The notes under the pieces are model-generated. The model searched no databases. It was not told the origin of the DNA and saw only the letters and a list, made by a program, of their open reading frames with translations. Shown here in pieces: positions 6,710 through 19,894 of a stretch of DNA of 64,000 bases. Position 1 is the stretch's first letter, and every line of letters starts with the position of its first letter. Origin of the DNA: Bacteroidota bacterium (GTDB lineage Bacteria; Bacteroidota; Bacteroidia; UKL13-3); the NCBI GenBank assembly GCA_947485745.1, contig CANKQY010000001.1, forward strand, positions 742 through 64,741. The letters are read 5' to 3'. A program made the translations under genes and the position numbers.

Positions 6710-7693
6710 ATGTTAAAATTTGTAGAAATAAAGATGCAAGTTATGAATTCTCTTCAGTTGGTAAGCAAAATCAGGTCGAAAACAGACCATCTCAATCAAA
6801 ATATTTCAGAATTACTAAATGGCAAGCTTCCATTTAATAGTATAGACAAGGATGTATTGAAAAAGCAATGTCTTGATTTATACGAACTTATTTTAAAATT
6901 AAAAACAGATTCAGAGCTTATTGAAGAGAAAAACATCCAAAAAAGTTTTCAGCAAATTACCCAAGAAATTGAGGTTCCAAGTTCGGTTCAAACCAAAATT
7001 GAAGAGAAAAAAATTGAACCCGAACCAATATTGCCAATAGAAGAGCCAAAAGAAACCTTCATAGAAAAATTAATAGAACCTGTTGTAGCAACCCAAAATT
7101 TTCAAGAGGTAATTTTCTTGGCCGATAAAAAAATGGAGTCGTTGGATGAAATTATTAGTAAGGTAGAAATTCAAGAAACAGCAGAAATTCTAGTTGCTGA
7201 AGATTCATTTGTTGCTGAGGATATAGAAATAGAGGAAATGGAAATTGCATCATTCGAAAACAGAGATCTTCCTCCTGTAAACATTGAAAAGGCTATTGAA
7301 AACAAAAGAATTCAATATACCGTAATGCCAGATAGAGAGGAGCAAAAAACAGTGCCACTCAATGCCACTTTCAAGGAAAAAGAACTTACCTATAACGAAA
7401 AAATTGCCCAGGTAAATCCACCAGTGATTATCCCAATGGCCGAGAATACCATTGAAGCACCTATAGATAGTATCAAATCTGCCATTAACCTCAATAAGAA
7501 GATTTCATTTGTAAACGAGCTATTTAAAGAAAATGTGGTTGAATACGCCAAAGCAATTGACCGCATGAACAATGCAAATGATAGAAATGATGCCTTCCGA
7601 ATTTACAACGAGTTAAAGCACCATTACAATTGGGACAATAACCATGAATTGGTGCACGACATAGAAAGATTGATTAAGCGCAGGTTTACTTAA
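6710..7693 (+). CDS. Hypothetical acidic (Glu/Ile-rich) protein
   Basis: A 327-aa ORF with strong coding periodicity, a low-complexity acidic centre and a conserved-looking C-terminal region (…YNELKHHYNWDNNHELVHDIERL). No recognisable catalytic motif. Confidence 0.45.
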   Translation: MLKFVEIKMQVMNSLQLVSKIRSKTDHLNQNISELLNGKLPFNSIDKDVLKKQCLDLYELILKLKTDSELIEEKNIQKSFQQITQEIEVPSSVQTKIEEKKIEPEPILPIEEPKETFIEKLIEPVVATQNFQEVIFLADKKMESLDEIISKVEIQETAEILVAEDSFVAEDIEIEEMEIASFENRDLPPVNIEKAIENKRIQYTVMPDREEQKTVPLNATFKEKELTYNEKIAQVNPPVIIPMAENTIEAPIDSIKSAINLNKKISFVNELFKENVVEYAKAIDRMNNANDRNDAFRIYNELKHHYNWDNNHELVHDIERLIKRRFT

Positions 7694-8133
7694 TCAATTT
7701 TCTTTTCAAAAATTCTCACCAACAATTCATCTAATTTTTTAATATCCTCAGGCAAATTAGGATCACGTGTATCCCACTTCCACTCCTGCAATTCAACACC
7801 TTTTCTCAGCCTTACAAAATGCGTTTCTTCGCCAATGGTATAAATGGTATTGTTGCTTTGCTTCATTTGATCAACCGTAGCATAAATAAATTCTGCATCC
7901 TTTTCTTTTACTTTTTTGTACTCTGTATACCTATTGGTAATAGTACTTTTTTGAAATAACTGTCCATTCTCTGACAAAATATAAGTATTGGTACCACCCG
8001 TTTTTTGATTCATGTAACCAAATTCCAACCTTAATTCTGGAATGGTGTCTCTGGTATATTTCTTACTACTGCATGAAAATAGCATTATACTTGCCATCAA
8101 AAATGCCCCTAAACTACCCTTAAATACTTTCAT
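7690..8133 (-). CDS. Hypothetical lipoprotein
   Basis: A signal peptide with lipobox (…ASIMLFSCSSKK) and a 147-aa product. Confidence 0.5.
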   Translation of the reverse strand: MKVFKGSLGAFLMASIMLFSCSSKKYTRDTIPELRLEFGYMNQKTGGTNTYILSENGQLFQKSTITNRYTEYKKVKEKDAEFIYATVDQMKQSNNTIYTIGEETHFVRLRKGVELQEWKWDTRDPNLPEDIKKLDELLVRIFEKKID

Positions 8134-8269
8134 AGTTTACCTAATTAATGTTGTATTAAAATTGTTTGCCAAGTTTATCATGCAATATCATAACAAATCA
8201 AATATAATGCCAATTGCTTTGATAAAATAATCACTCAAATAATTATACTATTTAGCTTGAGGCATATGC

Positions 8270-8306
8270 AAAAAAAAACCTTCCCAATTTCTTGGGAAGG
8301 TTTTTC
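8270..8306 (-). terminator. Rho-independent terminator, probably bidirectional
   Basis: The sequence is aaaaaaaaACCTTCCCAAtttcTTGGGAAGGTttttt: a perfect 10-bp stem with an A-run on one side and a T-run on the other. It lies just after the stop of the 2037-aa gene. Confidence 0.6.
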
Positions 8307-8310
8307 TAAA

Positions 8311-11300
8311 TTACTCTCGCAATAGCGTTATGGTTCCCCTTACGGTTACCTCCTCTTTGCCTCTCAATTGGTATTTGAAAACAAAATAGTAAGTACCTTC
8401 TGGGTTATCTTCTCCGGTATTGTTGGTTTTTCCATTCCACATTACTTTCGCATCTGTGCTTTCGAAAACTTTACCACCCCAACGATTCCAAATTTTCAAA
8501 TCATAAACTTCATTACCCTTAATTTTAATATTGAAAACATCATTATAGCCGTCGCCATTTGGTGTGAAAACGTTAGGGATATCAATTTCAGTTTGAAAGT
8601 TATTATTTACTTTCTTACATACCGAATCGTAACAATTGTCAACTCCTTCAGTTAAAGCCCAAATACAAATCCAGAAATCACCTGTATCGTTTTTAAAATC
8701 AACTACACCTAAGTGGAAATATGGATCATTGTTACTTGGAACATACAATTTAGGCAAATACTCAGAACCATCTGGTCTATATATTGCCCAATAGTAGCTG
8801 CTTGCATTGGCACTATCACTCTTGTTTAAAACAGCATATTTAGGCAATTCAATAAGCGTTGCATCCAAATCTGCTTTGGTTTTCAAAGCTGTTACCTGAA
8901 CCGTATCTTTAGATTCACACTTAGGAGTGTTTGGAATAAACCTAGTTGAATGCATTACCAAATTATACTTACCTGATTGGTAGAAAACATACTTAAAGGC
9001 AGAATCTTGATCAAAATTTGTTTTGAATGCAGTATCTGCTATTGCGGTAAAGTTTTCATTGAAAGCATACATTCTAAATTTGGTAATGGTATCCATGTCA
9101 GAAAGATTGCTCACTTTAAATACTTCACCTACGCAAACTTTATCCTTATCGGTTTCCATTTCTACATGATAAGGATTTTTCACGTAAATCTTAATTGCTT
9201 TTTCAAGACCATTTATTGTATCTGGTATAATAATTGGTGGGCAAGTTGCCAACACTGGTGGGTTCTTATCATAGCCAGCTGCAGTTATGTAGTAAATACC
9301 TTCTGTATCGTATATGATGTCAATGGTATCTGGATTATTGGTAACAATGGCATTGTAAACACCATCCGACCTACCAGAACGAATTAAGGTTGATGCTGTA
9401 GCACTTAGTGTTCCCGAATCGTTTGGAAAACTCACTACCCTCACCTTATAAGGAACGCAGCCTAACGTATCACTTAACAATTTAATCCTTGGTCTTGGTC
9501 CTGAAATATACACATCTTGCCTAGTGGTATCAAAACAACCTTGGTTGGTTTCTATCACCATCATTACATTGTACCAACCATTTTTCCTATATGGATAATA
9601 TGGATTTAATAAAGTAGAGAAGTAATTGTCTTTACCGTAACCATTGTCTCCAAACCACCACCTGCGCTCTTTAATTTGATCGCAAGGATAGCCTGTCGTA
9701 GCAAAGCAATTATCAATTACATAAGATGAGTCGAAGAAAATAGTTGGATCGCTACAAGCAAATATTCCCTTACTTAAGAATTTTGCTTTTGGCTCCACTA
9801 CATCCTGGTACATAAAACAAGTATCAAAATAACCAACTGTATCTCTTGTAATCATAGAAATTTTAAACTTGCCTGGCTTGTCAAACTTATAAGATGGATT
9901 CTTTCCAGTGGCATCAATAATACCATCTGATTGGAAATCCCAATAGATTCTTTCATAGAAATTGGTGTCTACTTTTACACAGAAATTGTAAATATTAGGT
10001 GCTGTTCCTTGCTGAATAAACTGCCAGCCGGTGGCACAACTATTAGCTATGGTAGAATAATATTTCGTAACATTAGGGAAGGTTTTTATTGAATCAATTG
10101 GATAATTGATCATACCTGCTCCATGTAAATCCAAAAATCTCAAAAGAGGCTCCTCTCCCGGTGAAAGCGGCCTTGAAGGATTATATTGCCCACCCGATTT
10201 AGGATACCAATACCTGATTGAATCTACAAAGTTTACTGTTTGTCCAATACATAAAACACCATCCGACAGGTTATTGCCCTCCTTCATGTAGAAGGTATCC
10301 ATTACACCAATAACTATTTGGCGACTAGCAGCGTTTGTGCACTCTGTAACTGTAACAACGTTATGTTGAACCTCTGTTATTTCGTTCTTTTTCAAAGTAG
10401 AACCCGGAGCTGCTGGCATTTCGTACGACGACATAAAATACTGGTGACGCACAGGATGCAAAAAGAATGCGGTATCTATTAAAGTATTTACCTGTTTAAT
10501 AGCCTGTGGAGGATACTGGTGAGTTGGATCTGTACATTGCCAAATGGTATCAAACCTCACAGATTTAAATACCCTTACCCCAACTGGATATGGTATGGTT
10601 TGTGATAAAATTGTCCATGGCGCTGTTTCCGCAGAAAACTGGTAACGTACTCGATTTCTCGGATAGGTATTCTTTTCAAAAAACGCACTGTCATTGGGGA
10701 AATTAATTGGGTCTAATTTCACAAAAGTATCTTCCGCATTGGTATAAAATGAGTCAACAGTTAAAGTACCATCTGCCCAATCCCAAACATCGGCCAAAAT
10801 AAAATCTTGTTGCTTGGTATTTGCATCAAATTCAATAATATCACCTTTACCAAACAACCTGCTCCAAGGCTCACGATAACCACCATTTGGCGTAAACAAC
10901 AATGGCGGTGTACCAGCTGGGTTTGTTTGAATAAAGTTTCGAGTAGTATCCCATCCATAATCTTGGCTTGGCAACATACTAGGATTTCCATAAGCTGAAT
11001 AGCCACCCACTTTTCTATAAGTGAATTTTGCATCTAAGCTAATAAAGTGGAAAAAGTTATGGTACCAAACGGTATCGGTAAAACAGGCTGGCTGACTAGC
11101 AGGTGTGCCACATGTACTGATATTTAAACAGCCAGTACCTAATATTAACCCAACTGTAACATAACCTCTTTTATCCTTTGGACTATTTGTATAAGGCCAA
11201 GCTCCATTTGGTTTGTAATGAGTCCAGTTAACTGCACCATTTGGATCTGTCCAAGGACCACCTGGGAATGGAGGGAAATTAACCAAATTAAAGAAACCAG

Positions 11301-14300
11301 GCCATGTATTACCCCCTGGAGTAACTGTTGTACCTGTCATTGGAGAGGTACCAGACCAATCCACAAATCCATCTAATTGGCAAGGCTGACCATCAATTCT
11401 ATCTGCTAAAGAATCATAATTTAATAAAATAAAAGTTCTCTTTACGCAATCAGGGTAAGTACCAGGATTTCCCGCGCTGTTATCAAAAACAAATCTTGGA
11501 TCACCTCCACTATTACCGCTTTTTAAATCTGGGCATTCTTTACCATCTTTACCCAAACCATAAGCATCTACACCAACCAATGGTAATTGAATGGTAGCTT
11601 CTGTTCCGCAATCCATAAAATCAACAAAGAATTCATCATCGCGTTTTAAAATGTATGAACCAGTGCCATCGGTTAATATTGGGTATGGTTTGTAGTTATA
11701 AATTAATCCTTCATAAACAGAAGTAATTAATAAAGTTGCATTACTAGCACCACCAACTAAGGTTACAGTTTGTCCAGATAAATAACCAATTCCAGGTGAA
11801 AGGATTAATACTGTATTTACTGCACCAGCGGCAACACCTACTCTTACTTTTAAACCAACTCCAGAACCACCAGTAACTAAATAATCACCTGCAGCATACC
11901 CTGTACCACCACTAGCTACTTTAACTTCCCCAACTAAATTATCTATTGATTTAGGCGTAGTAGTTCTGCTGAATGTATCGCTTACCAATGTTAATGGGAA
12001 ACCTGGGGTGGTATCTGTTCTTTGCACAATGATAATTTTACCACCATTCATATTAATTCTAGAGAATGATTTATATGGATCAGCAGACTGGTTATTGAAG
12101 CTATCTTTTTCAAACAATTTCACAGTATAACATGCGGCAACCGACCTATCAAAGAAATATTCGTATAAGGTTTTGATTCCACCAGGCAATAAATCATCAC
12201 CTTTATAAAATCTTCTATTGGTACCATCAGGCAATCTATCGTTCATCGCTGGAACTAGCAGCCCAGCTCTTGTAATCCTTGTACCTGCAGGAATGGTATA
12301 TTGCCAATATCCTTTGGCATTTGCAAATGGATCTGGAATGGCACCAGCTAAGGTTATAGGTCTGTTAGGATTAATATCTGCTGGCCAAATTCTACCTAAA
12401 GTATCAATTCTAGAAGGCGTGGTTCCGGCAGAATACATTGGTTGACCCCATTTAGCCGTATCTAGTGGATGAACCAAACGAGTTGGTGCTCCAGGCAATC
12501 CAGTTATTTTTGAGGCATCTTTTGCCCAAACAGTTGAATCGTATGGCGGAAAATCATGTCCATAATAAAACCACCTGTAAATATTACTCCATTTTTCAAA
12601 TTGGTGAATAGGCAGAGTATCATGTGAAAAATTACAATTTACTCTACCAGGGTAAATCCTACCACCAGCTATAAACCTACCAAGTGTTCTATTAAACATA
12701 TCGTTGGCATTGGTATATGGCTCCAAACCTTGCCTAGCGGCACTTGGGTTTGGTATAGAATAAGAAGTACATTGAGGTGCATAATTATCTGCAAAATCCC
12801 ACCTGATGTATAAATTATTTGATTGATAAGCCAAGCTTGTATTCACAAATTCAACAGGTAAATCTGGTCCACATTGTGTAGCTAAAAAAGGTTTAATTTT
12901 TACAGGGGTAATTGGGTCTTCAATTCTAACCAAAGGCCCCATAATATTAACACCAAAACCTCTTAATTGCGATTCTCTCTTTTTAATTGGCGCCTGTGCA
13001 GTATTATCTGTAAACCATTTCCAATAACTAACTATACTGTCTCTTGGTAAGCCATTAGACCCCATAATCCACCTGTATTTTGAAATAGAATCCGTAGCTT
13101 GGAAAAAATAACCATTGATTGTATTTAGGTTCGGATTCAATATCGGCGGTGGCACATACTGGCTATCACTTAATTGTGCGGTATCTATCCTCGACCAAAA
13201 ATTTAGTCGTTTTATAGGTTGCCCCGGGCAAGCTATTAATAAGGTTGGGAAATAATGGCCAAATCCTTGGTAGCGGTAACAAGGTGTGACTTCATTTAAC
13301 TTCTTATCTGAACCCGGTGGATTGGCATTTGGATCAGCAAAATCCCATAAAAGTTGAATTTGCGAATTTACGCCTTGCAAGGGATACATGTTATATAAAC
13401 AAACACTGGCAAGATTTCTATTTTGCAAACAAACACTATCTGCTATGGTGTCATTATTATTAGTTCTGCGGCTACGAATATCAAATTTCAATACAATGTT
13501 TTCTGGCAGCTGATTACCACTCATAACGTATTCAAAAGTATCAGCACAATTGTATTGTTTGTGGCGAACAATTAAACGAGGATTGAACACACCATTTTTG
13601 ATATACTTATAGGTAAAAATACTCCAACGAGGCAAATCTGCAACAGCTATTGGCGATTGAGATTGGTAAACACTGTCATCATCATATTCCCACCTAAACC
13701 ACAATAAATTTGAGGTTGAAACTGGTGTATTGTTCACAAAAATATAAGGTGTGGTATCACACCTTGGCGTACCACTCACTGTAAAACGTGGATTGATATT
13801 GGGAGCAACAAAAATAAATTTGAACTCTTTTGTTTCGCAACCACCAATATCTGTTGTGGTTAAACCAACATTGAATCTGCGATTTCCTTGCGTAAACCTG
13901 TGGCAGATATTTCCACCTGCCAAAATTGAATTACTATCTCCATCACCCCAAGTATAAATTACTTTTCCAATAGGCAAACTAGGCGCTGCTCCTGCAGTTG
14001 TATTGTCTTTAAAACAATAATAATTGTATTTAAAACATTGCGAATCCTGGCTTATTAAACTAAAATTAGCCACTGGTCTATTGTAAACCGTATCCCAAAC
14101 ATTTGTTTCTAAGGGAGAACGATTAGTAAACCTGGCAGTAACTTTAACATTGTAAATACCAGCCGCTGGGTACTGATAGGTTCTGGTATTAGATACCGGG
14201 CTACCGATATTATTGATACTTGAATCTCCATTTCCCCAATCAAATCTGTATGAGGTTACATCATTAACACTCACACCCGTAAGAAAGATGTCAACTTGGA

Positions 14301-14424
14301 TAGGACTCCCTAAACAAATTACACGTGGCAACACGTTCATGCTAATTGACTGTGAAAAGGCCGAGTTAGCTATGAGCCAACATACTGCCGATAAAGCTAG
14401 TCTAGTAATTAATCGTTTCATCAT
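8311..14424 (-). CDS. Giant secreted adhesin-like protein (2037 aa) with PKD-like repeats and a T9SS type-B (gliding-motility-associated, CHU_C-type) C-terminal domain
   Basis: N-terminal signal peptide. The C-terminus PNVFTPNGDGYNDVF…IWNRWGGKVFES…WNGK…GTYYFVFKYQ…RGTITLLRE matches the type-B CTD pattern. Confidence 0.85.
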   Translation of the reverse strand: MMKRLITRLALSAVCWLIANSAFSQSISMNVLPRVICLGSPIQVDIFLTGVSVNDVTSYRFDWGNGDSSINNIGSPVSNTRTYQYPAAGIYNVKVTARFTNRSPLETNVWDTVYNRPVANFSLISQDSQCFKYNYYCFKDNTTAGAAPSLPIGKVIYTWGDGDSNSILAGGNICHRFTQGNRRFNVGLTTTDIGGCETKEFKFIFVAPNINPRFTVSGTPRCDTTPYIFVNNTPVSTSNLLWFRWEYDDDSVYQSQSPIAVADLPRWSIFTYKYIKNGVFNPRLIVRHKQYNCADTFEYVMSGNQLPENIVLKFDIRSRRTNNNDTIADSVCLQNRNLASVCLYNMYPLQGVNSQIQLLWDFADPNANPPGSDKKLNEVTPCYRYQGFGHYFPTLLIACPGQPIKRLNFWSRIDTAQLSDSQYVPPPILNPNLNTINGYFFQATDSISKYRWIMGSNGLPRDSIVSYWKWFTDNTAQAPIKKRESQLRGFGVNIMGPLVRIEDPITPVKIKPFLATQCGPDLPVEFVNTSLAYQSNNLYIRWDFADNYAPQCTSYSIPNPSAARQGLEPYTNANDMFNRTLGRFIAGGRIYPGRVNCNFSHDTLPIHQFEKWSNIYRWFYYGHDFPPYDSTVWAKDASKITGLPGAPTRLVHPLDTAKWGQPMYSAGTTPSRIDTLGRIWPADINPNRPITLAGAIPDPFANAKGYWQYTIPAGTRITRAGLLVPAMNDRLPDGTNRRFYKGDDLLPGGIKTLYEYFFDRSVAACYTVKLFEKDSFNNQSADPYKSFSRINMNGGKIIIVQRTDTTPGFPLTLVSDTFSRTTTPKSIDNLVGEVKVASGGTGYAAGDYLVTGGSGVGLKVRVGVAAGAVNTVLILSPGIGYLSGQTVTLVGGASNATLLITSVYEGLIYNYKPYPILTDGTGSYILKRDDEFFVDFMDCGTEATIQLPLVGVDAYGLGKDGKECPDLKSGNSGGDPRFVFDNSAGNPGTYPDCVKRTFILLNYDSLADRIDGQPCQLDGFVDWSGTSPMTGTTVTPGGNTWPGFFNLVNFPPFPGGPWTDPNGAVNWTHYKPNGAWPYTNSPKDKRGYVTVGLILGTGCLNISTCGTPASQPACFTDTVWYHNFFHFISLDAKFTYRKVGGYSAYGNPSMLPSQDYGWDTTRNFIQTNPAGTPPLLFTPNGGYREPWSRLFGKGDIIEFDANTKQQDFILADVWDWADGTLTVDSFYTNAEDTFVKLDPINFPNDSAFFEKNTYPRNRVRYQFSAETAPWTILSQTIPYPVGVRVFKSVRFDTIWQCTDPTHQYPPQAIKQVNTLIDTAFFLHPVRHQYFMSSYEMPAAPGSTLKKNEITEVQHNVVTVTECTNAASRQIVIGVMDTFYMKEGNNLSDGVLCIGQTVNFVDSIRYWYPKSGGQYNPSRPLSPGEEPLLRFLDLHGAGMINYPIDSIKTFPNVTKYYSTIANSCATGWQFIQQGTAPNIYNFCVKVDTNFYERIYWDFQSDGIIDATGKNPSYKFDKPGKFKISMITRDTVGYFDTCFMYQDVVEPKAKFLSKGIFACSDPTIFFDSSYVIDNCFATTGYPCDQIKERRWWFGDNGYGKDNYFSTLLNPYYPYRKNGWYNVMMVIETNQGCFDTTRQDVYISGPRPRIKLLSDTLGCVPYKVRVVSFPNDSGTLSATASTLIRSGRSDGVYNAIVTNNPDTIDIIYDTEGIYYITAAGYDKNPPVLATCPPIIIPDTINGLEKAIKIYVKNPYHVEMETDKDKVCVGEVFKVSNLSDMDTITKFRMYAFNENFTAIADTAFKTNFDQDSAFKYVFYQSGKYNLVMHSTRFIPNTPKCESKDTVQVTALKTKADLDATLIELPKYAVLNKSDSANASSYYWAIYRPDGSEYLPKLYVPSNNDPYFHLGVVDFKNDTGDFWICIWALTEGVDNCYDSVCKKVNNNFQTEIDIPNVFTPNGDGYNDVFNIKIKGNEVYDLKIWNRWGGKVFESTDAKVMWNGKTNNTGEDNPEGTYYFVFKYQLRGKEEVTVRGTITLLRE

Positions 14425-14496
14425 ATATATATTTTTACTTTTTTGTCTTCTTTATTTGTTTGCCAAACTACAATTTTATTTTCAAATTTCTAGTCC

Positions 14497-15372
14497 CTAC
14501 CTAAACAGATTAATAAATCCACGTTTAGTTTGTCGCTCTGTTTCATCATTTAACTGATAGTCAATTACATAAATAAATCTCCCACTTGCACAATCCACGC
14601 CTGTCTTCCAATTGGTGCCATTCCAAGTATTGTTTAATTGATTGCTTTCAAAAACCACCTCACCATTTGCATCCACAATAGAAACATGATAATAAGATGC
14701 ATGATCTATTTGCACCTTCCAGGTATCATTTAAACCATCACCATCAGGACTAAATGCGTTGGAGATTATTGGTTCAAACGCATTGGTCTTGATGTCGTTA
14801 TTTTCCTTGCCTTGAAAATTTCTATTACTGTAGGCTCCTTTTGGTTCATTCTCTTTTTCCTTGGTTTCACTATCCTTGGCGGTAGCTTTTACAGGGGGTT
14901 CGGTTTGATCCAAAGCCTTATCGATGCTAGGGATTTGCGCTGGTTGGCTAAGCTCAGAATTTATTTGATTGCTAATTGCTTCAATTTGCACTTTGCTTTC
15001 CAAAAATTGCTTTTTTGTGCTAATTTTTGCTTCACCTTTAATAACAGTTTCTGGAGCCAATATAGTTTCTTGCTTCAACTCTCCTTTTTCAATAGTATTT
15101 TCTTGTGGAGGCAAATTCGTTTTTTCAACTTCCTTTTGGTTCAAACCGAAATATAAACCAAGCGAAACAAACGACACACCAACAACTACAGCAATTTTAC
15201 CACCCAAGCTAATTTGCTTAATGGTATTCATTAATTGATTGCCCTGCCCACTTGGTGCTGGCGAAACTTGAATTTGCTTTTCTATAAAGCTCCAAGCATC
15301 GGCAGGTGGAATTGGCTCAAAATTGGCCATCCCTTCTTTGATGAGTTGATCTATGTTTAAATTATTTTTCAA
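14497..15372 (-). CDS. Anti-sigma-factor-like single-pass membrane protein whose extracytoplasmic C-terminus is a T9SS type-B CTD
   Basis: It has no signal peptide. An approximately 60-aa cytoplasmic N-terminus (…NFEPIPPADAWSFIEKQI…) is followed by one TM helix (IAVVVGVSFVSLGLYFGL), a charged low-complexity linker and a C-terminus NAFSPDGDGLNDTW…VFES…WNG…GRFIYVIDYQ…RGFINLFR. That C-terminus is homologous to the CTDs of the neighbouring 2037- and 936-aa proteins. Its start overlaps the sigma-gene stop by 4 bp (ATGA). Confidence 0.7.
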   Translation of the reverse strand: MKNNLNIDQLIKEGMANFEPIPPADAWSFIEKQIQVSPAPSGQGNQLMNTIKQISLGGKIAVVVGVSFVSLGLYFGLNQKEVEKTNLPPQENTIEKGELKQETILAPETVIKGEAKISTKKQFLESKVQIEAISNQINSELSQPAQIPSIDKALDQTEPPVKATAKDSETKEKENEPKGAYSNRNFQGKENNDIKTNAFEPIISNAFSPDGDGLNDTWKVQIDHASYYHVSIVDANGEVVFESNQLNNTWNGTNWKTGVDCASGRFIYVIDYQLNDETERQTKRGFINLFR

Positions 15373-15920
15373 AATCTACTTTTTTCTTTGTTCAATTGAT
15401 TCCAATGCTGGATAAATAAAGCCCTGGCCCTAGAGAGTTGACTTTTAGAAGTGCCCTCACTAATTCCAAGCATTGATGCAATTTCGGCATGATTAAAACC
15501 TTCAATAATATAAAGGTTCAAAACAGTTCTATACCCTGTTGCCATATTGCCTAAAACTGCTAGAATTTCTTTTTGTGTAATCTTCCCCAAAGCCTCAGGT
15601 GCTTGTCCAATTCCATGAGCATCCTCTAAATCACTTTGTTGTTGATACACCTTATTTACTCTATAATGCTCTAAGGCAGTATTTATAAAAATGCGCTTCA
15701 TCCATCCTTCCAAAGAACCTTTTCCAGTATATTGCTCTAGCTTGGTAAAAACCTTTACAAAACCATCTTGGAGTATGTCTTTTGCATCCTCCTTGGTATT
15801 GCCATATCTTAAACAAACCGCATACATACTGCTGCTAAAGTGCTGGTAAAATGCCTTCTGAGCTTTTACCTCTCTTTTTAAACATCCTTGTATTATATTA
15901 TCCTCAAGTTGCTTGCTCAC
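15369..15920 (-). CDS. RNA polymerase ECF-type sigma-70 factor
   Basis: Sigma-70 region 2 (DAKDILQDGFVKVF…) and a region 4 helix-turn-helix (…IEGFNHAEIASMLGISEGTSKSQLSRAR) are present in a 183-aa product. Confidence 0.9.
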   Translation of the reverse strand: MSKQLEDNIIQGCLKREVKAQKAFYQHFSSSMYAVCLRYGNTKEDAKDILQDGFVKVFTKLEQYTGKGSLEGWMKRIFINTALEHYRVNKVYQQQSDLEDAHGIGQAPEALGKITQKEILAVLGNMATGYRTVLNLYIIEGFNHAEIASMLGISEGTSKSQLSRARALFIQHWNQLNKEKSRF

Positions 15921-16052
15921 TTTTTCAGTCTTATTTAAGCAGATGAATTAAATTGTTTGAAGGTTGCAATGCTCCGATTTTTTTTCTTAATTATTCGTTA
16001 ATCCTTTGCCTTATAACAAATTTCCAAAATAAGTGGTAATTTAGTCGAACAA

Positions 16053-18863
16053 ATGCGTTGGCTAAGATACTCCATATTTCAATTATGTTTATTGCTTGTT
16101 GCAGGCAATATTTTAGCACAATTGCCTGAACCGAGCCAACAAGCCACCGATTTTTTTGAATGGCGCGAAAATAAAGGTCAGTGGGACCCAAACATTTATT
16201 TTCGTTGCAAACAGCATACACTTGATTTACAATTAGGGTCCGATTTTTTTTCTTATTATTTTTTTGATGAGGCGCAATTAGATAGACTGCACTCGCACGG
16301 ACCAGTAAAATCAAACCCTGCGGCAGGTGATACCCTTCTTAACATGTATGCCTTAACTTTTAAATTTATAGGCGCACAGCAATCTAAACCAATTCTTACC
16401 TCACCTAAAACACATTATTATAATTACTACATTGGCAATAATCCTACACATTATGCCAACAAGGTAAGAGCATCCAATCATGTGGGCTTAGCAAGTATTT
16501 ACAAGGGCATCAATGTGTTGGTTCACTCCAATAAAAACCAATTAAAAATGGAGTATTGGCTCGAACCAAACGCTCAATTAAGTGATATAAAAATTGAAGT
16601 AAATGGGGCAAGCAATGTTTATTTAGAATACGGCGATTTATATATACAAACACCAAAAGGCTTAATAAAGGAGCAGAAACCCTATTCATACCAAATTATT
16701 GGCGACAAAAAAATTGACGTATCTATACACTATTTGGTAAATGGCAATGAGATAAGTTTTGTAGCAGACGAGAGTTATAACCCAAGTTACCCTTTGGTTA
16801 TAGACCCTGAAATTGTTTTCTTAACCTACTCTGGCTCCACCGAAGATAACTTTGGCTGCTCTGCTACTCCGGGTGAAAATGGCACTTTATACGCAGCAGG
16901 CATCACCACTGGCGATCCCACTTCATTGGGCAAATACCCGGTTACGGCAAATGCCTTCCAACTGGCTTATGCTGGTGGTGGCAATGCAGAAGGTGAGTTA
17001 TTGGGTAGATTTCCATGTGATATTACCTTCAGTAAATATAGCTCAGATGGCAAAACATTGTTATATGCCACATACTTGGGAGGGTCAAACAACGAGGTAC
17101 CTCATTCATTAGTTGTAGATGATAGCGCCAATTTGATCATTATGGGAAATACCTATTCCAATAATTATCCTGTTTCCAAAAACGCCTATGATACCAGTCA
17201 TAACGGCCGACACGACATCATTCTAACCAAGTTTGATAAAGATGGTAAATTAGTAGGTTCAACCTATTTGGGTGGAGTCGGAAACGATGGCATTAACACC
17301 AATAACACTACTCAATATTTTTTTGCAGATAGCTACCGAGGCGATGTAATTGCTGATTCTATGGGAAATATTTATGTGGCTTCCTTTTCTCAATCAAGCA
17401 ATTTCCCCACAACTCCGCTTTGCCTTCAAAACACCCTCAAGGGATTTCAAGATGGCGTAGTGTTTAAAATGAGTCCCGATTTAAAAAAACTCACTTGGAG
17501 CACCTATTTAGGAGGGAATAACATTGACGCCTTTTACAGCCTCGACCTAGAGCCCAATGGCAGCATGTGGCTTTCTGGCGGCACCAACAGCACCGACATT
17601 CCTGGCACAATTGGTACGCTTAACCCCGGTAATTTAGGAGGAAAAGCTGATGGTATCATTGTTTTGCTGGATGCAGCAGGCAGGAATATTCTAAAATCAA
17701 CCTATTATGGCACCAGTAATTACGATCAAATAATTTCATTAGAAATTGACCAAGATGATAATATTTACATTGTAGGACAGAGCTTAGGTAAAATACCTGT
17801 AACCAATGGCGTTTATAACAACCCAAATTCTCATCAATTTATTGCTTGTTTGAGCCCAGATTTAAAAACCAATTTGTGGTCAACCGTTTTTGGTTCAGGC
17901 CGACCCCAAATTGACCTCACCATTAATGCATTTTTAGTAGATGAATGCAAAAGAATATATGTGAGCAGTTGGGGTGGGGCAACCGCAACAAAAACAGATG
18001 GCTCTTTATCTTCTACAGATGGAATTCCTGTTACCGCTGATGCGTTTCAAAACGTTACTGATGGGAGTGATTTCTATTTACTCATGCTCAATAAAAACGC
18101 CTCTGGCTTGCTTTATGCTACTTTTATTGGTGGCGACAATCCAAATAACTCAGGCGACCATGTGGATGGCGGTACCAGTAGGTTCGACAAAAAAGGGGTT
18201 GTTTACCAGAGTATGTGCGCCAGCTGTCCAAATAACAATATTCCATTTACTGATCTGCAAACAACACCAGGAGTTTATGCACCAATAAATTTGAGTCCGC
18301 GTTGCAGCAATGCTGCCCTCAAATTTGATTTTAGAATTCAAAATGCTAATTTTAATTGGGAGGCAGATACCTGCGCTTCAATTTTCAAATTCAAAAATTT
18401 GACACCAAATGCCTCTAATTTCTTTTGGACCTTCCCCAACGGTGATACTAGCTTTGAGGAGAGTCCTACCAAACAAATTGCCAGTATCTATTATGGCGAC
18501 ACCATTAGACTTATTGTGGAATTTGGCACCAATTGCGCTGATACTGCTTACGGCTTTGTGAGTTTACCAGATTCGCTCGATAAGTTAAATGTTCCTAATG
18601 TATTTACGCCAAATGGCGATGGCAAAAACGATGATTTTAGAATTGAAGGAGTAAGTGGCCAATGCAATGAAACCGAGGTCTATATTTACAACCGCTGGGG
18701 TCAACTCTATTTTAAAGACGATGTGAGCTATTTTAGCTGGGACGGCAAAGATGATAAGGGCATAGAAGCGCCCGAAGGCGTTTATTTCTTTATCCTAAAA
18801 ACCAAAAAACTCAATACCGGCCAACAAGAAGAGTTACACGGAACCATTACGCTGATTAGATGA
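16053..18863 (+). CDS. SBBP beta-propeller-repeat protein with T9SS type-B CTD (936 aa)
   Basis: Signal peptide MRWLRYSIFQLCLLLVAGNILAQ. Repeated ST/YLGG…D…GN.Y..G.T.S.NFP motifs. C-terminus NVFTPNGDGKNDDF…IYNRWGQLYF…WDGK…GVYFFILK…HGTITLIR. Confidence 0.85.
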   Translation: MRWLRYSIFQLCLLLVAGNILAQLPEPSQQATDFFEWRENKGQWDPNIYFRCKQHTLDLQLGSDFFSYYFFDEAQLDRLHSHGPVKSNPAAGDTLLNMYALTFKFIGAQQSKPILTSPKTHYYNYYIGNNPTHYANKVRASNHVGLASIYKGINVLVHSNKNQLKMEYWLEPNAQLSDIKIEVNGASNVYLEYGDLYIQTPKGLIKEQKPYSYQIIGDKKIDVSIHYLVNGNEISFVADESYNPSYPLVIDPEIVFLTYSGSTEDNFGCSATPGENGTLYAAGITTGDPTSLGKYPVTANAFQLAYAGGGNAEGELLGRFPCDITFSKYSSDGKTLLYATYLGGSNNEVPHSLVVDDSANLIIMGNTYSNNYPVSKNAYDTSHNGRHDIILTKFDKDGKLVGSTYLGGVGNDGINTNNTTQYFFADSYRGDVIADSMGNIYVASFSQSSNFPTTPLCLQNTLKGFQDGVVFKMSPDLKKLTWSTYLGGNNIDAFYSLDLEPNGSMWLSGGTNSTDIPGTIGTLNPGNLGGKADGIIVLLDAAGRNILKSTYYGTSNYDQIISLEIDQDDNIYIVGQSLGKIPVTNGVYNNPNSHQFIACLSPDLKTNLWSTVFGSGRPQIDLTINAFLVDECKRIYVSSWGGATATKTDGSLSSTDGIPVTADAFQNVTDGSDFYLLMLNKNASGLLYATFIGGDNPNNSGDHVDGGTSRFDKKGVVYQSMCASCPNNNIPFTDLQTTPGVYAPINLSPRCSNAALKFDFRIQNANFNWEADTCASIFKFKNLTPNASNFFWTFPNGDTSFEESPTKQIASIYYGDTIRLIVEFGTNCADTAYGFVSLPDSLDKLNVPNVFTPNGDGKNDDFRIEGVSGQCNETEVYIYNRWGQLYFKDDVSYFSWDGKDDKGIEAPEGVYFFILKTKKLNTGQQEELHGTITLIR

Positions 18864-19145
18864 TAAAATAGCCCGGCGCGCTTACGCCCGGGAATATTGA
18901 ATGCCCAAAATGATCCAATAGGCCTTCAGACCTTTTCTGCTTTTGTAATATTATCAGCGCTAACAAACCCTGCATTTTATCCAGCAACATTATTATTCAA
19001 GCCTATTAGGATTGCGAATAATCTGCAATTCATCAAAACTTGCAATAAATCCAAACCTGATAATTGCGACCTGCGACATTTTTTGGCATTGTTTTTGGAT
19101 AAGAAAATAATATCATTAACTTTAACTACAATAAATCACAAAATC

Positions 19146-19751
19146 ATGAAAACAAATCTTAGAATCCTGTTACGTTCAGGAGCACTTTTATTGGCATTTG
19201 CAGTTGCTTTTGCTTCTTGTAAATCTAAAAAGAACAAGGTAACTCCAATTGAAAATAGCACTGGCGCAGTTGAAATCAGTGTTCCTTTTAGTGAGGGCAA
19301 ATACTATTCCGATAAAGACAATTTCCGCGCAAAGAGCAGCGGTAGTAGTCCAGATTTACAAACAGCCAAGAAAATTGCTTTGCAAAATGCAAAATCTGAA
19401 ATGGCCGGTTTGATCCAAACTACTATTAAAAAAGTAACCGACCAATATACCCAACAACGCACCGTTGGCAACCAAGTTGATTTCAACAACAAGTTTGAAG
19501 AATTGGCTCGCGAGGTTACTAACCAAGAATTAGTAGATGTGAAAGTTTTGGGCGAAAAATTATTCAAAGAAACCAATAACTCTTATACCTATTGGATATC
19601 CATTGAGGCCAACAAGCAAGCCGTATTAAATGGCATAGAAAAAGGCATTGCCAATAACAAAAAAATTGAGCAAGATTACGACAAGAAAAAGTTTGAAGAA
19701 ATCTTCAATGCCGAAATGGATAAACTAACCAAGGAACGCAACGGCCAATAG
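19146..19751 (+). CDS. LPP20-like lipoprotein (201 aa)
   Basis: ATG at 19146 followed by a lipoprotein signal (…LLAFAVAFASCKSKK). The ORF-track start at 18897 is an upstream extension with no coding signal. Confidence 0.55.
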   Translation: MKTNLRILLRSGALLLAFAVAFASCKSKKNKVTPIENSTGAVEISVPFSEGKYYSDKDNFRAKSSGSSPDLQTAKKIALQNAKSEMAGLIQTTIKKVTDQYTQQRTVGNQVDFNNKFEELAREVTNQELVDVKVLGEKLFKETNNSYTYWISIEANKQAVLNGIEKGIANNKKIEQDYDKKKFEEIFNAEMDKLTKERNGQ

Positions 19752-19764
19752 TTTATTTTTCAAT

Positions 19765-19874: not shown

Positions 19875-19894
19875 GTAAAAACCATCCAAAAAAA

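What the first reader, a model, noticed from the sequence alone, without database searches (positions are those of the whole stretch)
8311..18863. ECF sigma / anti-sigma pair embedded in a T9SS type-B cargo cluster; the anti-sigma sensor domain is itself a T9SS sorting domain
On the minus strand the order is ECF sigma (15369-15920), a 4-bp overlap, then an anti-sigma-like single-pass membrane protein (14497-15372). After a 72-bp gap comes a 2037-aa adhesin-like protein with a type-B CTD (8311-14424), followed by its terminator. A 936-aa SBBP protein with the same CTD type is transcribed divergently from the sigma gene.

The only recognisable extracytoplasmic domain of the anti-sigma-like protein is a type-B CTD, and it is homologous to the CTDs of its two neighbours: NAFSPDGDGLND… versus NVFTPNGDG(Y/K)ND…, and …RGFINLFR versus …RGTITLLR / HGTITLIR.

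Type-B CTDs are secretion signals recognised by the T9SS outer-membrane machinery. Here one is attached to a protein with no signal peptide, the N-in single-TM topology of an anti-sigma factor, and an N-terminal segment (…NFEPIPPADAWSFIEKQI…) resembling N-termini of Bacteroidota proteins encoded downstream of ECF sigma genes (recalled, not searched).

This architecture suggests a cell-surface-signalling-like circuit. Engagement or removal of the anti-sigma CTD by the T9SS, or competition with cargo CTDs for the translocon, would release the sigma factor and drive transcription of the adjacent giant cargo genes. That would report secretion-system capacity or load. No cognate PorP/SprF-type partner gene is present, which type-B cargo usually carries next to it.
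Basis: partly seen in the sequence, partly recalled or inferred. Interest (0 to 1): 0.78.

Follow-up and report, generated by a model that had tools for sequence, protein, structure and literature searches.

The report
Anti-sigma factor carrying a T9SS sorting domain
An uncultured freshwater Bacteroidia bacterium has a self-activating three-gene operon (sigma factor, membrane anti-sigma factor, giant secreted protein) in which the anti-sigma factor resembles the recently described "dual membrane-spanning" kind but ends in a secretion-system sorting domain instead of an outer-membrane barrel, so gene expression may be tied to the type IX secretion machine.

Summary
All four ORFs, the 4-bp overlap, the 72-bp gap and the terminator are as stated. 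The 291-aa protein passes both type-B CTD models.

New findings:
- The four-gene module is conserved in every sufficiently long related locus but one. All are MAGs of uncultured Bacteroidia.
- One ECF-type promoter, TGCAAC-N17-CRTCT, lies 15-23 nt before the sigma start in 20/20 module loci. It drives sigma, anti-sigma and the giant cargo gene. No such site precedes the 936-aa gene.
- The cytoplasmic N-terminus (about 35 aa) is homologous (hhalign 98.7%) to that of a large Bacteroidota family encoded after ECF sigma genes. That family has the architecture of published Dma anti-sigma factors: TM helix, disordered tether, outer-membrane beta-barrel.
- Here the barrel is replaced by a type-B CTD on a 134±10-aa disordered tether.
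- All 18 anti-sigma CTDs lack the NRW motif that all 26 neighbouring cargo CTDs keep.

The sigma/anti-sigma/operon reading is well supported. Coupling to the T9SS is plausible but untested.

Verdict: a new variant of a known kind, not found in the literature I searched.

The parts
15941..15968 (-). ECF-type autoregulatory promoter TGCAAC-N17-CATCT (-35 and -10 elements). It ends 20 nt before the GTG start of the sigma gene.
   Evidence: It is the only exact match in the 64-kb window. There is exactly one match in each of 20 module loci, always just upstream of sigma on its strand. A PWM scores these sites 24-41 bits, against 12.7 bits or less for any other site in the loci.
15978..16002 (-). 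AT-rich tandem element (TTAACGAA-TAA-TTAAGAAA) immediately upstream of the -35. It could be an UP element or a binding site for a second regulator.
   Evidence: A TTAAGAAA-n-TTTTAAGAAA-like block is conserved at the same offset in most loci, but not in L006 or L013. Its function is inferred only.
15369..15920 (-). ECF sigma factor, 183 aa, with a GTG start.
   Evidence: TIGR02937 scores 75.7 bits (cut-off 42.9); Sigma70_r2 and Sigma70_r4_2 are present. It is 37-45% identical to sigmas paired with N-motif (Dma-type) proteins, against 28% to an RskA-type ECF sigma.
14497..15372 (-). Dma-like anti-sigma factor, 291 aa. Its TTG start overlaps the sigma stop codon by 4 bp.
   Evidence: Conserved architecture: 36 of the 45 aligned hits from an N-terminus-only profile search carry CHU_C. 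It lies directly after an ECF sigma gene in all 17 related loci as well as here.
15268..15372 (-). Cytoplasmic N-terminal motif, aa 1-35 (NIDqLik.g..nFeP.PPaDaW..Ie.qi), the putative sigma-binding domain.
   Evidence: AF2 predicts two helices, 7-15 and 26-34, with pLDDT 81-86. W27 is invariant. hhalign against the N-termini of the OMP-barrel (Dma-type) family gives 98.7%, E 1.8e-16 over 35 columns. There is no Pfam or PDB match.
15142..15210 (-). Single transmembrane helix, aa 55-77, acting as a signal anchor with N-in orientation.
   Evidence: Kyte-Doolittle peak of 1.93. AF2 helix at 59-76. Positive-inside rule across 48 sequences.
14773..15141 (-). Disordered periplasmic tether, aa 78-200, rich in E, K, S, P, T and N.
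   Evidence: pLDDT is about 50. The sequence is not conserved, but the length is: 134±10 aa, range 118-158, n=52.
14500..14772 (-). C-terminal type-B T9SS CTD (CHU_C), aa 201-291, lacking the NRW motif.
   Evidence: PF13585 62.6 bits; TIGR04131 37.6 bits. Beta-sandwich with pLDDT above 95. Foldseek hits include the T9SS CTDs 5m11, 8gl8_D and 6za2. NRW(G/E) is absent in 18/18 anti-sigma CTDs and present in 26/26 cargo CTDs; a single Cys is conserved in 16/18.
14463..14470 (-). TAGTTTGG box in the 72-bp gap, a candidate housekeeping-type -7 promoter element for the giant gene.
   Evidence: A conserved TGTA(G/A)GTTAGCAAA block is present in all loci with a long gap. It resembles the Bacteroidota sigma-A -7 consensus TAnnTTTG (PMC9723704). 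This assignment is tentative.
8311..14424 (-). Giant T9SS type-B cargo, 2037 aa: signal peptide, PKD domains, CHU_C at aa 1947-2036 (nt 8317-8586). It is the third gene of the operon.
   Evidence: Domains. Orthologues of 1795-2549 aa follow the anti-sigma gene in every locus long enough to show it, with a gap of only 2-7 bp in six loci.
8270..8300 (-). Intrinsic terminator of the operon: 9-bp stem, GAAA loop, T9 tail.
   Evidence: Read directly from the sequence.
16053..18863 (+). Divergent T9SS type-B cargo, 936 aa: signal peptide, DUF7948, SBBP, CHU_C at aa 846-936.
   Evidence: Domains. It is conserved as the divergent partner in all long loci except L013. It has no ECF-type promoter.

Best explanation
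Anatomy. Region 8270-15968 (minus strand) is a self-activating operon. It consists of an ECF promoter, an ECF sigma gene, a membrane anti-sigma gene, a giant type-B T9SS cargo gene and a terminator.

The anti-sigma factor is a variant of the dual membrane-spanning (Dma) class. A roughly 35-aa cytoplasmic N-terminal motif holds the sigma at the inner membrane. A single TM helix follows, then a disordered tether of about 125-135 aa, long enough to cross the periplasm. The tether presents a C-terminal type-B T9SS sorting domain where Dma proteins have an outer-membrane beta-barrel.

Proposed mechanism.
1. The CTD is recognised by the type-B branch of the T9SS, meaning the SprA translocon and/or a PorP/SprF-like shuttle. 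The protein thereby bridges the outer-membrane machine and the cytoplasm.
2. A change in that engagement exposes or strains the tether to proteolysis.
3. The membrane stub is then removed by regulated intramembrane proteolysis.
4. The sigma is released and transcribes its own operon, including the giant adhesin-like cargo.
5. The cargo's CTD is the closest relative of the anti-sigma CTD and could compete for the same receptor. Cargo synthesis would then be matched to secretion capacity.

Shown here: the anatomy, its conservation, the promoter, the operon structure, homology of the N-terminus to sigma-associated Dma-type proteins, and the CTD assignment.

Inferred: sigma binding, T9SS engagement, the direction of the signal, and proteolysis.
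For: - ORFs and domains.
- Conserved architecture, recovered with an N-terminus-only profile: 46 hits at E 1e-3 or better, of which 36 of the 45 aligned carry CHU_C.
- Conserved module in 17 non-redundant related loci.
- Single conserved ECF-type promoter 15-23 nt before the sigma start in 20/20 module loci. The next-best site scores 12.7 bits or less, against 24-41 bits.
- The gap between the anti-sigma and giant genes is 2-7 bp in six loci, and no terminator appears until after the giant gene.
- The N-terminal motif also occurs in proteins with other C-termini, and every one examined directly follows or overlaps an ECF sigma gene.
- hhalign of the TM-free N-termini against the OMP-barrel family gives 98.7%, E 1.8e-16.
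- That family has the four-part Dma architecture. In Dma1, residues 1-40 pull down the sigma Das1 (PMC10927553; 10.1101/2025.09.27.678952).
- AF2 model: two N-terminal helices, a TM helix, 120 disordered residues and a confident beta-sandwich.
- Tether length is conserved at 134±10 aa without sequence conservation.
- N-in charge bias.
- The anti-sigma CTD is closer to the giant's CTD (38%) than to the DUF7948 protein's CTD (32%).
- In six relatives the module sits beside tandem PorP/SprF genes and a GldK/J-like gene; a PorU-like gene was also seen in four of them.
- Type-B CTDs are known to work through cognate PorP/SprF shuttles, and several orphan CTDs can share one shuttle (PMC12618676).
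Against: - There is no direct evidence of sigma binding. The N-terminus matches no Pfam anti-sigma domain and no solved structure.
- B. thetaiotaomicron Dma1 itself was not available for comparison. The link to Dma rests on architecture and on Flavobacterium proteins of the same design.
- All 18 anti-sigma CTDs lack the NRW motif that is invariant in 26 neighbouring cargo CTDs. Each conserved type-B motif was needed for secretion of a SprB CTD fusion (PMC12618676). The domain may therefore not be a functional secretion signal.
- TIGR04131 is passed only narrowly, 37.6 against 35 bits.
- T9SS cargo normally has a cleavable Sec signal; this protein has a signal anchor.
- No PorP/SprF gene lies in the window.
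- The family is known only from MAGs, so no organism is available for experiments.
Confidence: 0.55

Rival explanations
1. Co-opted Ig-like sensor. The pair is a genuine sigma/anti-sigma pair, but the CHU_C-derived domain no longer interacts with the T9SS. It would be an ordinary periplasmic beta-sandwich sensor, for example binding a ligand, peptidoglycan, a glycan or another periplasmic protein. Its origin from a cargo CTD would then be historical only.
For: NRW(G/E) is lost in 18/18 anti-sigma CTDs but kept in 26/26 cargo CTDs. All five type-B motifs were individually required for secretion of a SprB CTD fusion (PMC12618676). TIGR04131 is passed only marginally. The fold is a generic Ig-like sandwich with many unrelated structural neighbours. 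No PorP/SprF gene lies in the window.
Against: The other CTD blocks are retained: PNxF(S/T)PNGDGxND, VFES, WxG, GxYxY and the terminal GxIxLxR at the extreme C-terminus. The domain is always co-operonic with a type-B cargo whose CTD is its nearest relative. A tether of conserved length suggests that the domain must reach the outer membrane. The homologous Dma family places its C-terminal domain in the outer membrane (PMC10927553).
Confidence: 0.22
2. Backlog sensor with the opposite sign. The anti-sigma CTD does not contact the machine. Instead it senses unsecreted type-B cargo in the periplasm, through CTD-CTD contact or because free cargo titrates a shared chaperone or shuttle. The circuit would then report secretion failure, as an envelope-stress-type response, rather than secretion capacity.
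For: The anti-sigma CTD is most similar to the CTD of the co-transcribed giant cargo. The logic parallels the sigma-E/RseA response to unassembled outer-membrane proteins, which is established knowledge. The Dma authors propose that outer-membrane perturbation is the signal (PMC10927553).
Against: Inducing more giant cargo when that cargo is already stuck would be a harmful positive loop. No chaperone or protease gene is seen in the operon. There is no same-locus co-variation between anti-sigma and giant CTDs: 38.9% within loci against 37.9% overall.
Confidence: 0.13
3. Not an anti-sigma factor. The 291-aa protein would be an inner-membrane-anchored accessory or tethered cargo, for example a secretion adaptor for the giant protein, that merely shares an operon with a sigma factor.
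For: No known anti-sigma domain model matches the N-terminus. The protein is always followed by the giant cargo gene.
Against: The same N-terminal motif is found on proteins with unrelated C-termini (OMP barrel, or none). Every one of these examined directly follows or overlaps an ECF sigma gene, without any giant cargo gene. The motif is homologous to the Dma-type N-terminus. Start-stop overlap or near-abutment with sigma is the rule across loci, with gaps of 80 and 126 bp in L006 and L013.
Confidence: 0.07
4. Mis-annotated start. Translation would really begin at M48, giving an ordinary small T9SS cargo with a cleavable signal peptide.
For: The sequence MNTIKQ followed by a hydrophobic stretch looks superficially like a signal peptide.
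Against: Residues 1-47 are the best-conserved part of the protein after the CTD, down to about 25% overall identity. M48 is not conserved. The hydrophobic stretch is of TM length and has no small-residue cleavage site. The start codon position next to the sigma stop is conserved, and several homologues use ATG there.
Confidence: 0.03

Closest known systems
[quoted passage not shown] Sources: PMC10927553 and 10.1101/2025.09.27.678952.
   Same: - The gene lies directly downstream of, and is co-transcribed with, a Bacteroidota ECF sigma gene.
- It has a short cytoplasmic N-terminal region; in Dma1, residues 1-40 suffice to bind the sigma.
- It has one TM helix.
- It has a long, intrinsically disordered periplasmic tether.
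- Its C-terminal domain is destined for an outer-membrane machine.
- The N-terminal 35 aa are homologous to those of Flavobacterium proteins with the Dma architecture.
- The sigmas are 37-45% identical.
   Different: - The C-terminal 8-stranded outer-membrane beta-barrel is replaced by a roughly 90-aa type-B T9SS sorting domain.
- The tether is shorter: about 134 aa, against about 300 aa in the Flavobacterium examples.
- The operon carries a giant T9SS cargo gene rather than vesiculation or oxidative-stress genes.
T9SS type-B CTD cargo with PorP/SprF-like shuttles (SprB/SprF, Fjoh_3952/3951, PG1035/PorP). Sources: PMC12618676 and PMC9143113.
   Same: - A C-terminal domain at the extreme C-terminus passes PF13585 and TIGR04131.
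- It is a beta-sandwich.
- Most conserved sequence blocks are retained.
- It neighbours other type-B cargo, and in relatives it neighbours PorP/SprF genes.
   Different: - It has no cleavable Sec signal and remains anchored in the inner membrane.
- It lacks the NRW motif.
- It has no passenger domain, only a disordered tether.
- No shuttle gene lies in this window.
PorA with PorXY-SigP signalling in Porphyromonas gingivalis. Source: PMC7712824.
   Same: A protein bearing a T9SS CTD feeds information about the cell surface or the T9SS to an ECF sigma factor.
   Different: PorA is a soluble type-A CTD cargo on the cell surface. It acts through a two-component system (PorY/PorX) that binds SigP, and no anti-sigma factor is involved. 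The sigma in this window is not a SigP orthologue: NF058625 scores 70.5 bits against a cut-off of 130.
Secretion-coupled anti-sigma control: FlgM/sigma-28 with the flagellar T3SS, and BtrA/BtrS in Bordetella. From established knowledge, not tested here.
   Same: The logic is shared. The anti-sigma factor carries the recognition signal of a secretion machine, so sigma activity reports the state of that machine.
   Different: FlgM and BtrA are soluble cytoplasmic proteins that are exported whole. Here the sigma-binding part stays in the cytoplasm and only the distal domain can meet the machine. There is no sequence or fold relationship.
FecR-type cell-surface signalling (FecA/FecR/FecI and the Bacteroidota SusC-linked ECF/anti-sigma pairs). 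From established knowledge.
   Same: A signal from an outer-membrane machine passes through an inner-membrane anti-sigma factor to an ECF sigma that controls adjacent genes.
   Different: There is no FecR domain, no TonB-dependent transducer with an N-terminal signalling domain, and no Pfam hit. Here the anti-sigma factor itself reaches the outer membrane.

Membership tests
ECF (group IV) sigma-70 factors | Sigma-2 and sigma-4 domains only, small size, and a score above the family HMM cut-off. | tested here: met
   TIGR02937 scores 75.7 bits (cut-off 42.9). PF04542 and PF08281 are present. The protein is 183 aa.
ECF (group IV) sigma-70 factors | Autoregulatory promoter with an AAC-containing -35 and a CGT-type -10. 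| tested here: met
   TGCAAC-N17-C(A/G)TCT is conserved in 20/20 loci at a fixed distance from the start codon. Its activity has not been measured.
ECF21 group (the sigmas paired with Dma/Reo) | Membership by the group-specific HMM or by phylogeny. | not testable with these tools
   No ECF21 model is present in the libraries. The only indirect evidence is 37-45% identity to sigmas next to Dma-type proteins, against 28% to another ECF sigma.
Dma (dual membrane-spanning anti-sigma) family | Encoded next to, and co-transcribed with, an ECF sigma gene. | tested here: met
   There is a 4-bp overlap here. An ECF sigma gene lies directly upstream in all 17 related loci, overlapping or within 11 bp in 15 of them and 80-126 bp away in L006 and L013.
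Dma (dual membrane-spanning anti-sigma) family | N-terminal cytoplasmic sigma-binding region of about 40 aa. | tested here: inconclusive
   The region is homologous to the N-termini of Dma-architecture proteins (hhalign 98.7%, E 1.8e-16). Binding was not tested.
Dma (dual membrane-spanning anti-sigma) family | Single TM helix followed by a long, intrinsically disordered tether. | tested here: met
   TM helix at 59-76 and a disordered stretch at 77-200 with pLDDT about 50. Tether length is 134±10 aa across the family.
Dma (dual membrane-spanning anti-sigma) family | C-terminal outer-membrane beta-barrel (OMP_b-brl / OMP_b-brl_2). | tested here: not met
   The C-terminus is CHU_C (PF13585), a beta-sandwich, and no OMP barrel hit is found. 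The protein is therefore not a Dma member in the strict sense. It is a variant in which the outer-membrane module has been swapped.
T9SS type-B CTD (TIGR04131 / PF13585 CHU_C) | Score above the curated HMM cut-offs, with the domain at the extreme C-terminus. | tested here: met
   PF13585 scores 62.6 bits (cut-off 27) and TIGR04131 37.6 bits (cut-off 35). The domain spans aa 203-289 of 291.
T9SS type-B CTD (TIGR04131 / PF13585 CHU_C) | All conserved sequence motifs of type-B CTDs are present. Motifs A-E were each required for secretion of a SprB CTD fusion (PMC12618676). | tested here: not met
   NRW(G/E) is absent in 18/18 anti-sigma CTDs and present in 26/26 cargo CTDs; the other blocks are retained. 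Equating NRWG with the paper's loop motif C is my inference, because the figure is not held.
T9SS cargo | N-terminal cleavable Sec signal peptide. | tested here: not met
   The N-terminus is hydrophilic and conserved. A TM-length hydrophobic segment at aa 55-77 has no cleavage site. No dedicated signal-peptide predictor was available.
T9SS cargo | Cognate PorP/SprF-like shuttle, often encoded adjacently. | tested here: inconclusive
   None is present in the window. A tandem pair lies beside the module in six related loci. Orphan CTDs that share a distant shuttle are known (PMC12618676).
Classical anti-sigma domains (zf-HC2/RsrA-type ASD, RskA, FecR) | A match to the corresponding Pfam or NCBIfam models. 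| tested here: not met
   The whole protein gives no hit at E 0.1 or better, and the N-terminal 85 aa give none at E 1 or better. The profile search against PDB sequences gives no hit.

The most novel reading that the evidence does not exclude
The anti-sigma factor is a built-in pseudo-substrate of the type-B branch of the T9SS. Its NRW-less CTD would be captured by the SprA translocon or by a PorP/SprF-like shuttle, possibly one riding the moving GldK track, but it cannot be released because the protein stays anchored in the inner membrane. Capture or pulling would trigger cleavage of the tether and release of the sigma. Transcription of a giant adhesin gene would then be gated by a working secretion and gliding machine. 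This would be a FlgM-like checkpoint for the T9SS.

Taken together with the beta-barrel Dma proteins, it would define a general Bacteroidota principle. Anti-sigma factors would carry a reporter substrate for an outer-membrane machine: BAM in one case, the T9SS in the other.
Probability: 0.25. Interest if true: 0.85.

Novelty: new variant of a known kind. Interest (0 to 1): 0.62.

Why it matters
How T9SS cargo expression is matched to the machine is largely unknown outside the PorXY-SigP pathway of P. gingivalis. The signal sensed by the recently discovered Dma anti-sigma factors is also unknown.

This variant swaps the Dma outer-membrane barrel for a T9SS sorting signal and sits in an operon with a type-B cargo. 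It therefore points to a concrete and testable hypothesis for both problems: the distal domain is a substrate or ligand of an outer-membrane machine.

The work also supplies several tools:
- a defined promoter motif for finding the regulon;
- a natural NRW-less CTD for dissecting recognition from translocation;
- a 35-aa sigma-associated motif that currently has no Pfam model, although it is shared with a family of at least 1730 proteins.

Tried and rejected
- **Internal start at M48, giving ordinary cargo with a signal peptide.** Rejected. Residues 1-47 are conserved and M48 is not.
- **Known anti-sigma domain models, and PDB sequences, against the N-terminus.** Nothing found.
- **AF2 of a sigma-linker-anti-sigma fusion with a paired alignment.** Sigma binding therefore remains untested.
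- **A second ECF promoter for the 936-aa gene or elsewhere in the window.** None found. The only other one-mismatch hit, at 32336, is at chance level, and PWM scores are 12.7 bits or less.
- **Genome-contig scan with the broad N-terminal alignment A4.** The narrower alignment A5 worked but returned only 11 loci, all MAGs. Absence from cultured species is therefore not shown.
- **Word-indexed profile search with A4.** It gave a single 89-aa hit and was uninformative.
- **ECF classification paper.** The main text does not mention CHU_C or T9SS-linked anti-sigma factors, and its supplements are not held.
- **Literature searches** for anti-sigma + T9SS, for CHU_C + sigma factor, and for "dual membrane-spanning anti-sigma". 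None returned a description of a CTD-bearing anti-sigma factor.
- **Same-locus co-evolution of the anti-sigma and giant CTDs.** No signal: 38.9% within loci against 37.9% overall.
- **Consensus terminator scan.** It missed the obvious hairpin, which I then read by eye.

Full report
**1. The observation**

- 2037 aa at 8311-14424 (-);
- 291 aa at 14497-15372 (-, TTG start);
- 183 aa at 15369-15920 (-, GTG start);
- 936 aa at 16053-18863 (+).

The sigma and anti-sigma genes overlap by 4 bp. A 72-bp gap precedes the giant gene, and the divergent intergenic region is 132 bp.

The 183-aa protein is an ECF sigma: TIGR02937 scores 75.7 bits against a cut-off of 42.9, with Sigma70_r2 and Sigma70_r4_2.

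All three other proteins end in a type-B CTD.

| Protein | PF13585 (cut-off 27) | TIGR04131 (cut-off 35) |
|---|---|---|
| 291 aa | 62.6 | 37.6 |
| 2037 aa | 74.1 | 50.2 |
| 936 aa | 75.4 | 51.6 |

The two large proteins have classical signal peptides. The 936-aa protein is DUF7948 + SBBP + CHU_C, and the 2037-aa protein is PKD + CHU_C.

A perfect hairpin with a T9 tail follows the giant gene at 8270-8300. I read it directly from the sequence; the consensus scan missed it.

No PorP/SprF gene was found among the window's ORFs of 130 aa or more.

**2. The 291-aa protein is real and has a fixed four-part architecture**

Close homologues (51-79% identity) show that residues 1-80 are as conserved as the CTD, while residues 80-200 drift.

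I then ran an exhaustive profile search using only the N-terminal 82 residues. It returned 46 cluster representatives, almost all 285-325 aa long. Of the 45 I aligned, 36 carry CHU_C at the C-terminus. Because the query contained no CTD, this is independent evidence for a stable architecture.

M48 is not conserved and the segment before it is, so an internal start that would create a signal peptide is excluded.

The AF2 model shows:
- two short helices at 7-15 and 26-34, pLDDT 81-86;
- a TM helix at 59-76;
- about 120 disordered residues, pLDDT about 50;
- a beta-sandwich at 201-291, pLDDT above 95.

Structural neighbours of the sandwich include the T9SS CTDs of PorZ, RemZ (inside the SprA translocon complex) and PorU.

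Flank charges across 48 sequences favour an N-in orientation: +1.65 on the N side against -0.19 on the C side.

The tether is rich in E, K, S, P, T and N. Its sequence is not conserved but its length is: 134±10 aa, range 118-158, n=52. Fully extended, about 134 residues would span roughly 45 nm, which is more than a periplasm. That figure is my inference from residue spacing.

**3. A conserved four-gene module in uncultured Bacteroidia**

In 17 non-redundant related loci the order is the same:
- a DUF7948...CHU_C gene, transcribed divergently;
- then an ECF sigma gene (178-184 aa);
- then the N-motif/TM/tether/CHU_C gene (287-324 aa);
- then an orthologous giant CHU_C gene (1795-2549 aa).

This holds even where the anti-sigma proteins are only about 25% identical. 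L013 is the only long locus in which the divergent gene was not detected.

All records are MAGs, mostly from freshwater, labelled Bacteroidia or Bacteroidota bacterium. No cultured organism was recovered, but the scan pattern was narrow.

The flanking genes (thymidine kinase, and homologues of the 327-aa and 147-aa ORFs) are often shared. The module is therefore a vertically inherited chromosomal locus, not a mobile one.

In six relatives a tandem pair of PorP/SprF genes and a GldK/J-like gene lie beside the module. A PorU-like gene was also seen in four of them. They are absent at this position in the window.

**4. Promoter and operon**

Aligning the intergenic regions revealed TGCAAC-N17-C(A/G)TCT.
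- It occurs exactly once in the 64-kb window, at 15941-15968 on the minus strand.
- It occurs exactly once in each of 20 module loci, always on the sigma strand.
- It ends 15-23 nt before a conserved GTG (ATG in L016 and L020) start codon.
- A PWM scores these sites at 24-41 bits. Nothing else in about 400 kb scores above 12.7 bits.

The AAC-type -35 and the CGT/CAT-C -10 with fixed spacing are the usual ECF promoter pattern. This rests on established knowledge; a CGT -10 box is also reported for Flavobacterium ECF promoters in PMC9723704.

The anti-sigma and giant genes are separated by only 2-7 bp in six loci. In the window, no terminator appears until after the giant gene. I therefore read the unit as promoter, sigma, anti-sigma, giant gene, terminator, driven by its own sigma.

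The divergent 936-aa gene has no such site. Both it and the giant gene (in loci with a long gap) carry a TA(A/G)nTTAG box resembling the Bacteroidota housekeeping -7 element TAnnTTTG.

An AT-rich tandem element (TTAAGAAA-like, two copies) lies just upstream of the -35 in most loci. Its role is unknown.

**5. What the N-terminus is**

It matches no Pfam or NCBIfam anti-sigma model and no PDB sequence.

The N-terminal profile search nevertheless also retrieved proteins with other C-termini: P0033 (513 aa, OMP barrel), P0041 (326 aa) and P0051 (195 aa). Each of these directly follows or overlaps an ECF sigma gene.

P0033 belongs to a family with at least 1730 hits. It includes proteins annotated as outer membrane beta-barrel proteins in cultured Flavobacterium species. 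In F. pallidum CP029187 the gene overlaps an ECF sigma gene by 4 bp. The protein has four parts:
- an N-terminus, MSERKNIDRLFQEKFKDFEAAPGEHVWKNIEAAL;
- a TM helix;
- a low-complexity tether of about 300 aa;
- a C-terminal barrel ending in a beta-signal (...GVSFKF).

A profile-profile comparison of the TM-free N-termini (residues 1-40) of the CHU_C family and this barrel family gives 98.7% probability, E 1.8e-16, over 35 columns.

The window's sigma is 37-45% identical to the sigmas of these pairs, against 28% to an RskA-associated ECF sigma.

**6. Comparison with the literature**

[quoted passage not shown] It comprises an N-terminal sigma-binding region, a TM helix, an intrinsically disordered tether and an outer-membrane beta-barrel. 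It is paired with ECF21 sigmas and is restricted to Bacteroidota.

For Dma1, residues 1-40 suffice to pull down the sigma Das1. The full-length protein spans both membranes and is proteolytically processed (PMC10927553; 10.1101/2025.09.27.678952). Neither paper mentions the T9SS or a CTD variant.

Searches for anti-sigma + T9SS, for CHU_C + sigma factor, and for the Dma phrase found no description of a CTD-bearing anti-sigma factor.

The nearest T9SS-specific precedent is PorA, a type-A CTD surface protein that feeds PorXY-SigP (PMC7712824). That wiring is different.

**7. The CTD is a degenerate type-B CTD related to the giant's**

Average identities across the loci:
- anti-sigma CTD to giant CTD: 38%;
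- anti-sigma CTD to DUF7948-protein CTD: 32%;
- same-locus anti-sigma/giant pairs: 38.9%, against 37.9% overall, so there is no excess.

All 26 cargo CTDs keep an invariant NRW(G/E). All 18 anti-sigma CTDs have D/N/T/E-x-x-G/E/N at that position.

The other blocks are retained: PNxF(S/T)PNGDGxND, VFES, WxG, GxYxY and the terminal GxIxLxR. A single Cys is conserved in 16/18.

In the model the NRW position is a hairpin loop. Paillat et al. found five conserved type-B motifs, two of them on loops, each required for secretion of a SprB CTD fusion. They also found that type-B CTDs pair with PorP/SprF-like shuttles and that several orphan CTDs can share one shuttle (PMC12618676). Equating NRWG with their loop motif C is my inference.

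**8. Mechanism**

- Best supported (about 0.8): this is a sigma/anti-sigma pair of the Dma lineage that autoregulates an operon containing a giant type-B cargo.
- Less certain (about 0.4): the CTD couples the switch to the type-B branch of the T9SS.

The CTD would be recognised at the outer membrane, so the protein bridges the two membranes as Dma proteins do with their barrel. A change in engagement would lead to cleavage of the tether, intramembrane proteolysis and release of the sigma.

The giant cargo's related CTD could compete for the same receptor and close a feedback loop.

The loss of NRW fits a domain that is recognised but not released, a pseudo-substrate. It fits the rival reading equally well, in which the domain has been co-opted as a generic periplasmic sensor.

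The direction of the signal cannot be decided from sequence. It could report capacity or backlog.

**9. Verdict**

- control of the 2037-aa gene: yes;
- control of the 936-aa gene: no evidence;
- T9SS coupling: untested.

The closest known system is the Dma family. The protein fails that family's beta-barrel criterion, so it should be described as a Dma-like variant with a swapped outer-membrane module. That is a new variant of a known kind.

Noticed in passing
P0033/L021 5001-6542; P0111/L024 4001-5797 (Flavobacterium pallidum CP029187); P0041/L022 4968-5948: The 35-aa N-terminal motif (NI[DE]xLFxEKFKxFExxPPxxxWxxI) has no Pfam model. It nevertheless heads a family with at least 1730 hits, made up of proteins encoded after ECF sigma genes. 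In some members (P0033, P0041, P0035) the motif is repeated two or three times in tandem before the TM helix, which might allow more than one sigma to be bound.
   Followed up: partly
window 14500-14772 (aa 261 of the 291-aa protein) and the homologous column in L001-L020: A single Cys, two residues before the GxY block, is conserved in 16/18 anti-sigma CTDs and 9/13 giant CTDs. The DUF7948-protein CTDs have no Cys at this position. A lone periplasmic Cys could form an intermolecular disulfide. SprF and PorG are disulfide-linked to GldK in the T9SS and gliding track (PMC12635249).
   Followed up: no
window 15978-16002 (-), and the same offset in most related loci: An AT-rich tandem element (TTAACGAA-TAA-TTAAGAAA; consensus TTAAGAAA-n-TTTTAAGAAA) lies immediately upstream of the ECF -35. 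It is absent in L006 and L013. It could be an UP element or the binding site of a second regulator.
   Followed up: partly
window 14463-14470 (-), the left end of the 15921-16052 intergenic region, and 8165-8185 (-): TA(A/G)nTT(A/T)G boxes followed by GCAAA precede the giant gene, the divergent DUF7948 gene and the small lipoprotein gene. They look like a clade-specific version of the Bacteroidota sigma-A -7 box TAnnTTTG.
   Followed up: partly
window 7690-8133 (-): A 147-aa predicted lipoprotein (LFSC lipobox) lies just downstream of the operon terminator. It is conserved in that position in the SBBP-type subclade (L003, L007, L012) but not in the subclade whose divergent gene is about 1500 aa long. 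It matches no family.
   Followed up: partly
L001, L003, L004, L007, L011, L013, L018 (about 2.5-9 kb upstream of sigma): In these relatives two tandem PorP/SprF paralogues and a roughly 481-aa FGE-sulfatase-domain (GldK/GldJ-like) protein lie next to the module. A PorU-like C25 peptidase gene was also seen in L001, L003, L004, L007 and GCA_041442895. In the window this block is replaced by a 284-aa ORF with no family match and a 474-aa LPP20 lipoprotein (18897-21295), which indicates a local rearrangement.
   Followed up: partly
L013 9323-17089: This is the only long locus in which no divergent DUF7948...CHU_C gene was detected. There the PorP/PorP/GldK-like block directly abuts the sigma promoter.
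   Followed up: no
window 25925-33277, 37625-39061, 40410-44930, 46102-46941, 47080-51081, 55586-57877: The window is dense in type-A T9SS cargo genes (Por_Secre_tail). They include a 2450-aa protein combining choice-of-anchor I, phytase-like, 5'-nucleotidase and PhoX domains. They also include a second DUF7948+SBBP protein (1506 aa) that carries a type-A rather than a type-B CTD.
   Followed up: no
window 21497-23241 (-): A LytTR response regulator and a His_kinase (LytS-type) sensor pair lie 2.6 kb from the module. No link to the module was examined.
   Followed up: no
L005 995-2253: One related MAG carries a second, unrelated ECF sigma with an RskA_C-type anti-sigma factor 8 kb from the module. 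It served as an outgroup for the sigma comparison.
   Followed up: yes
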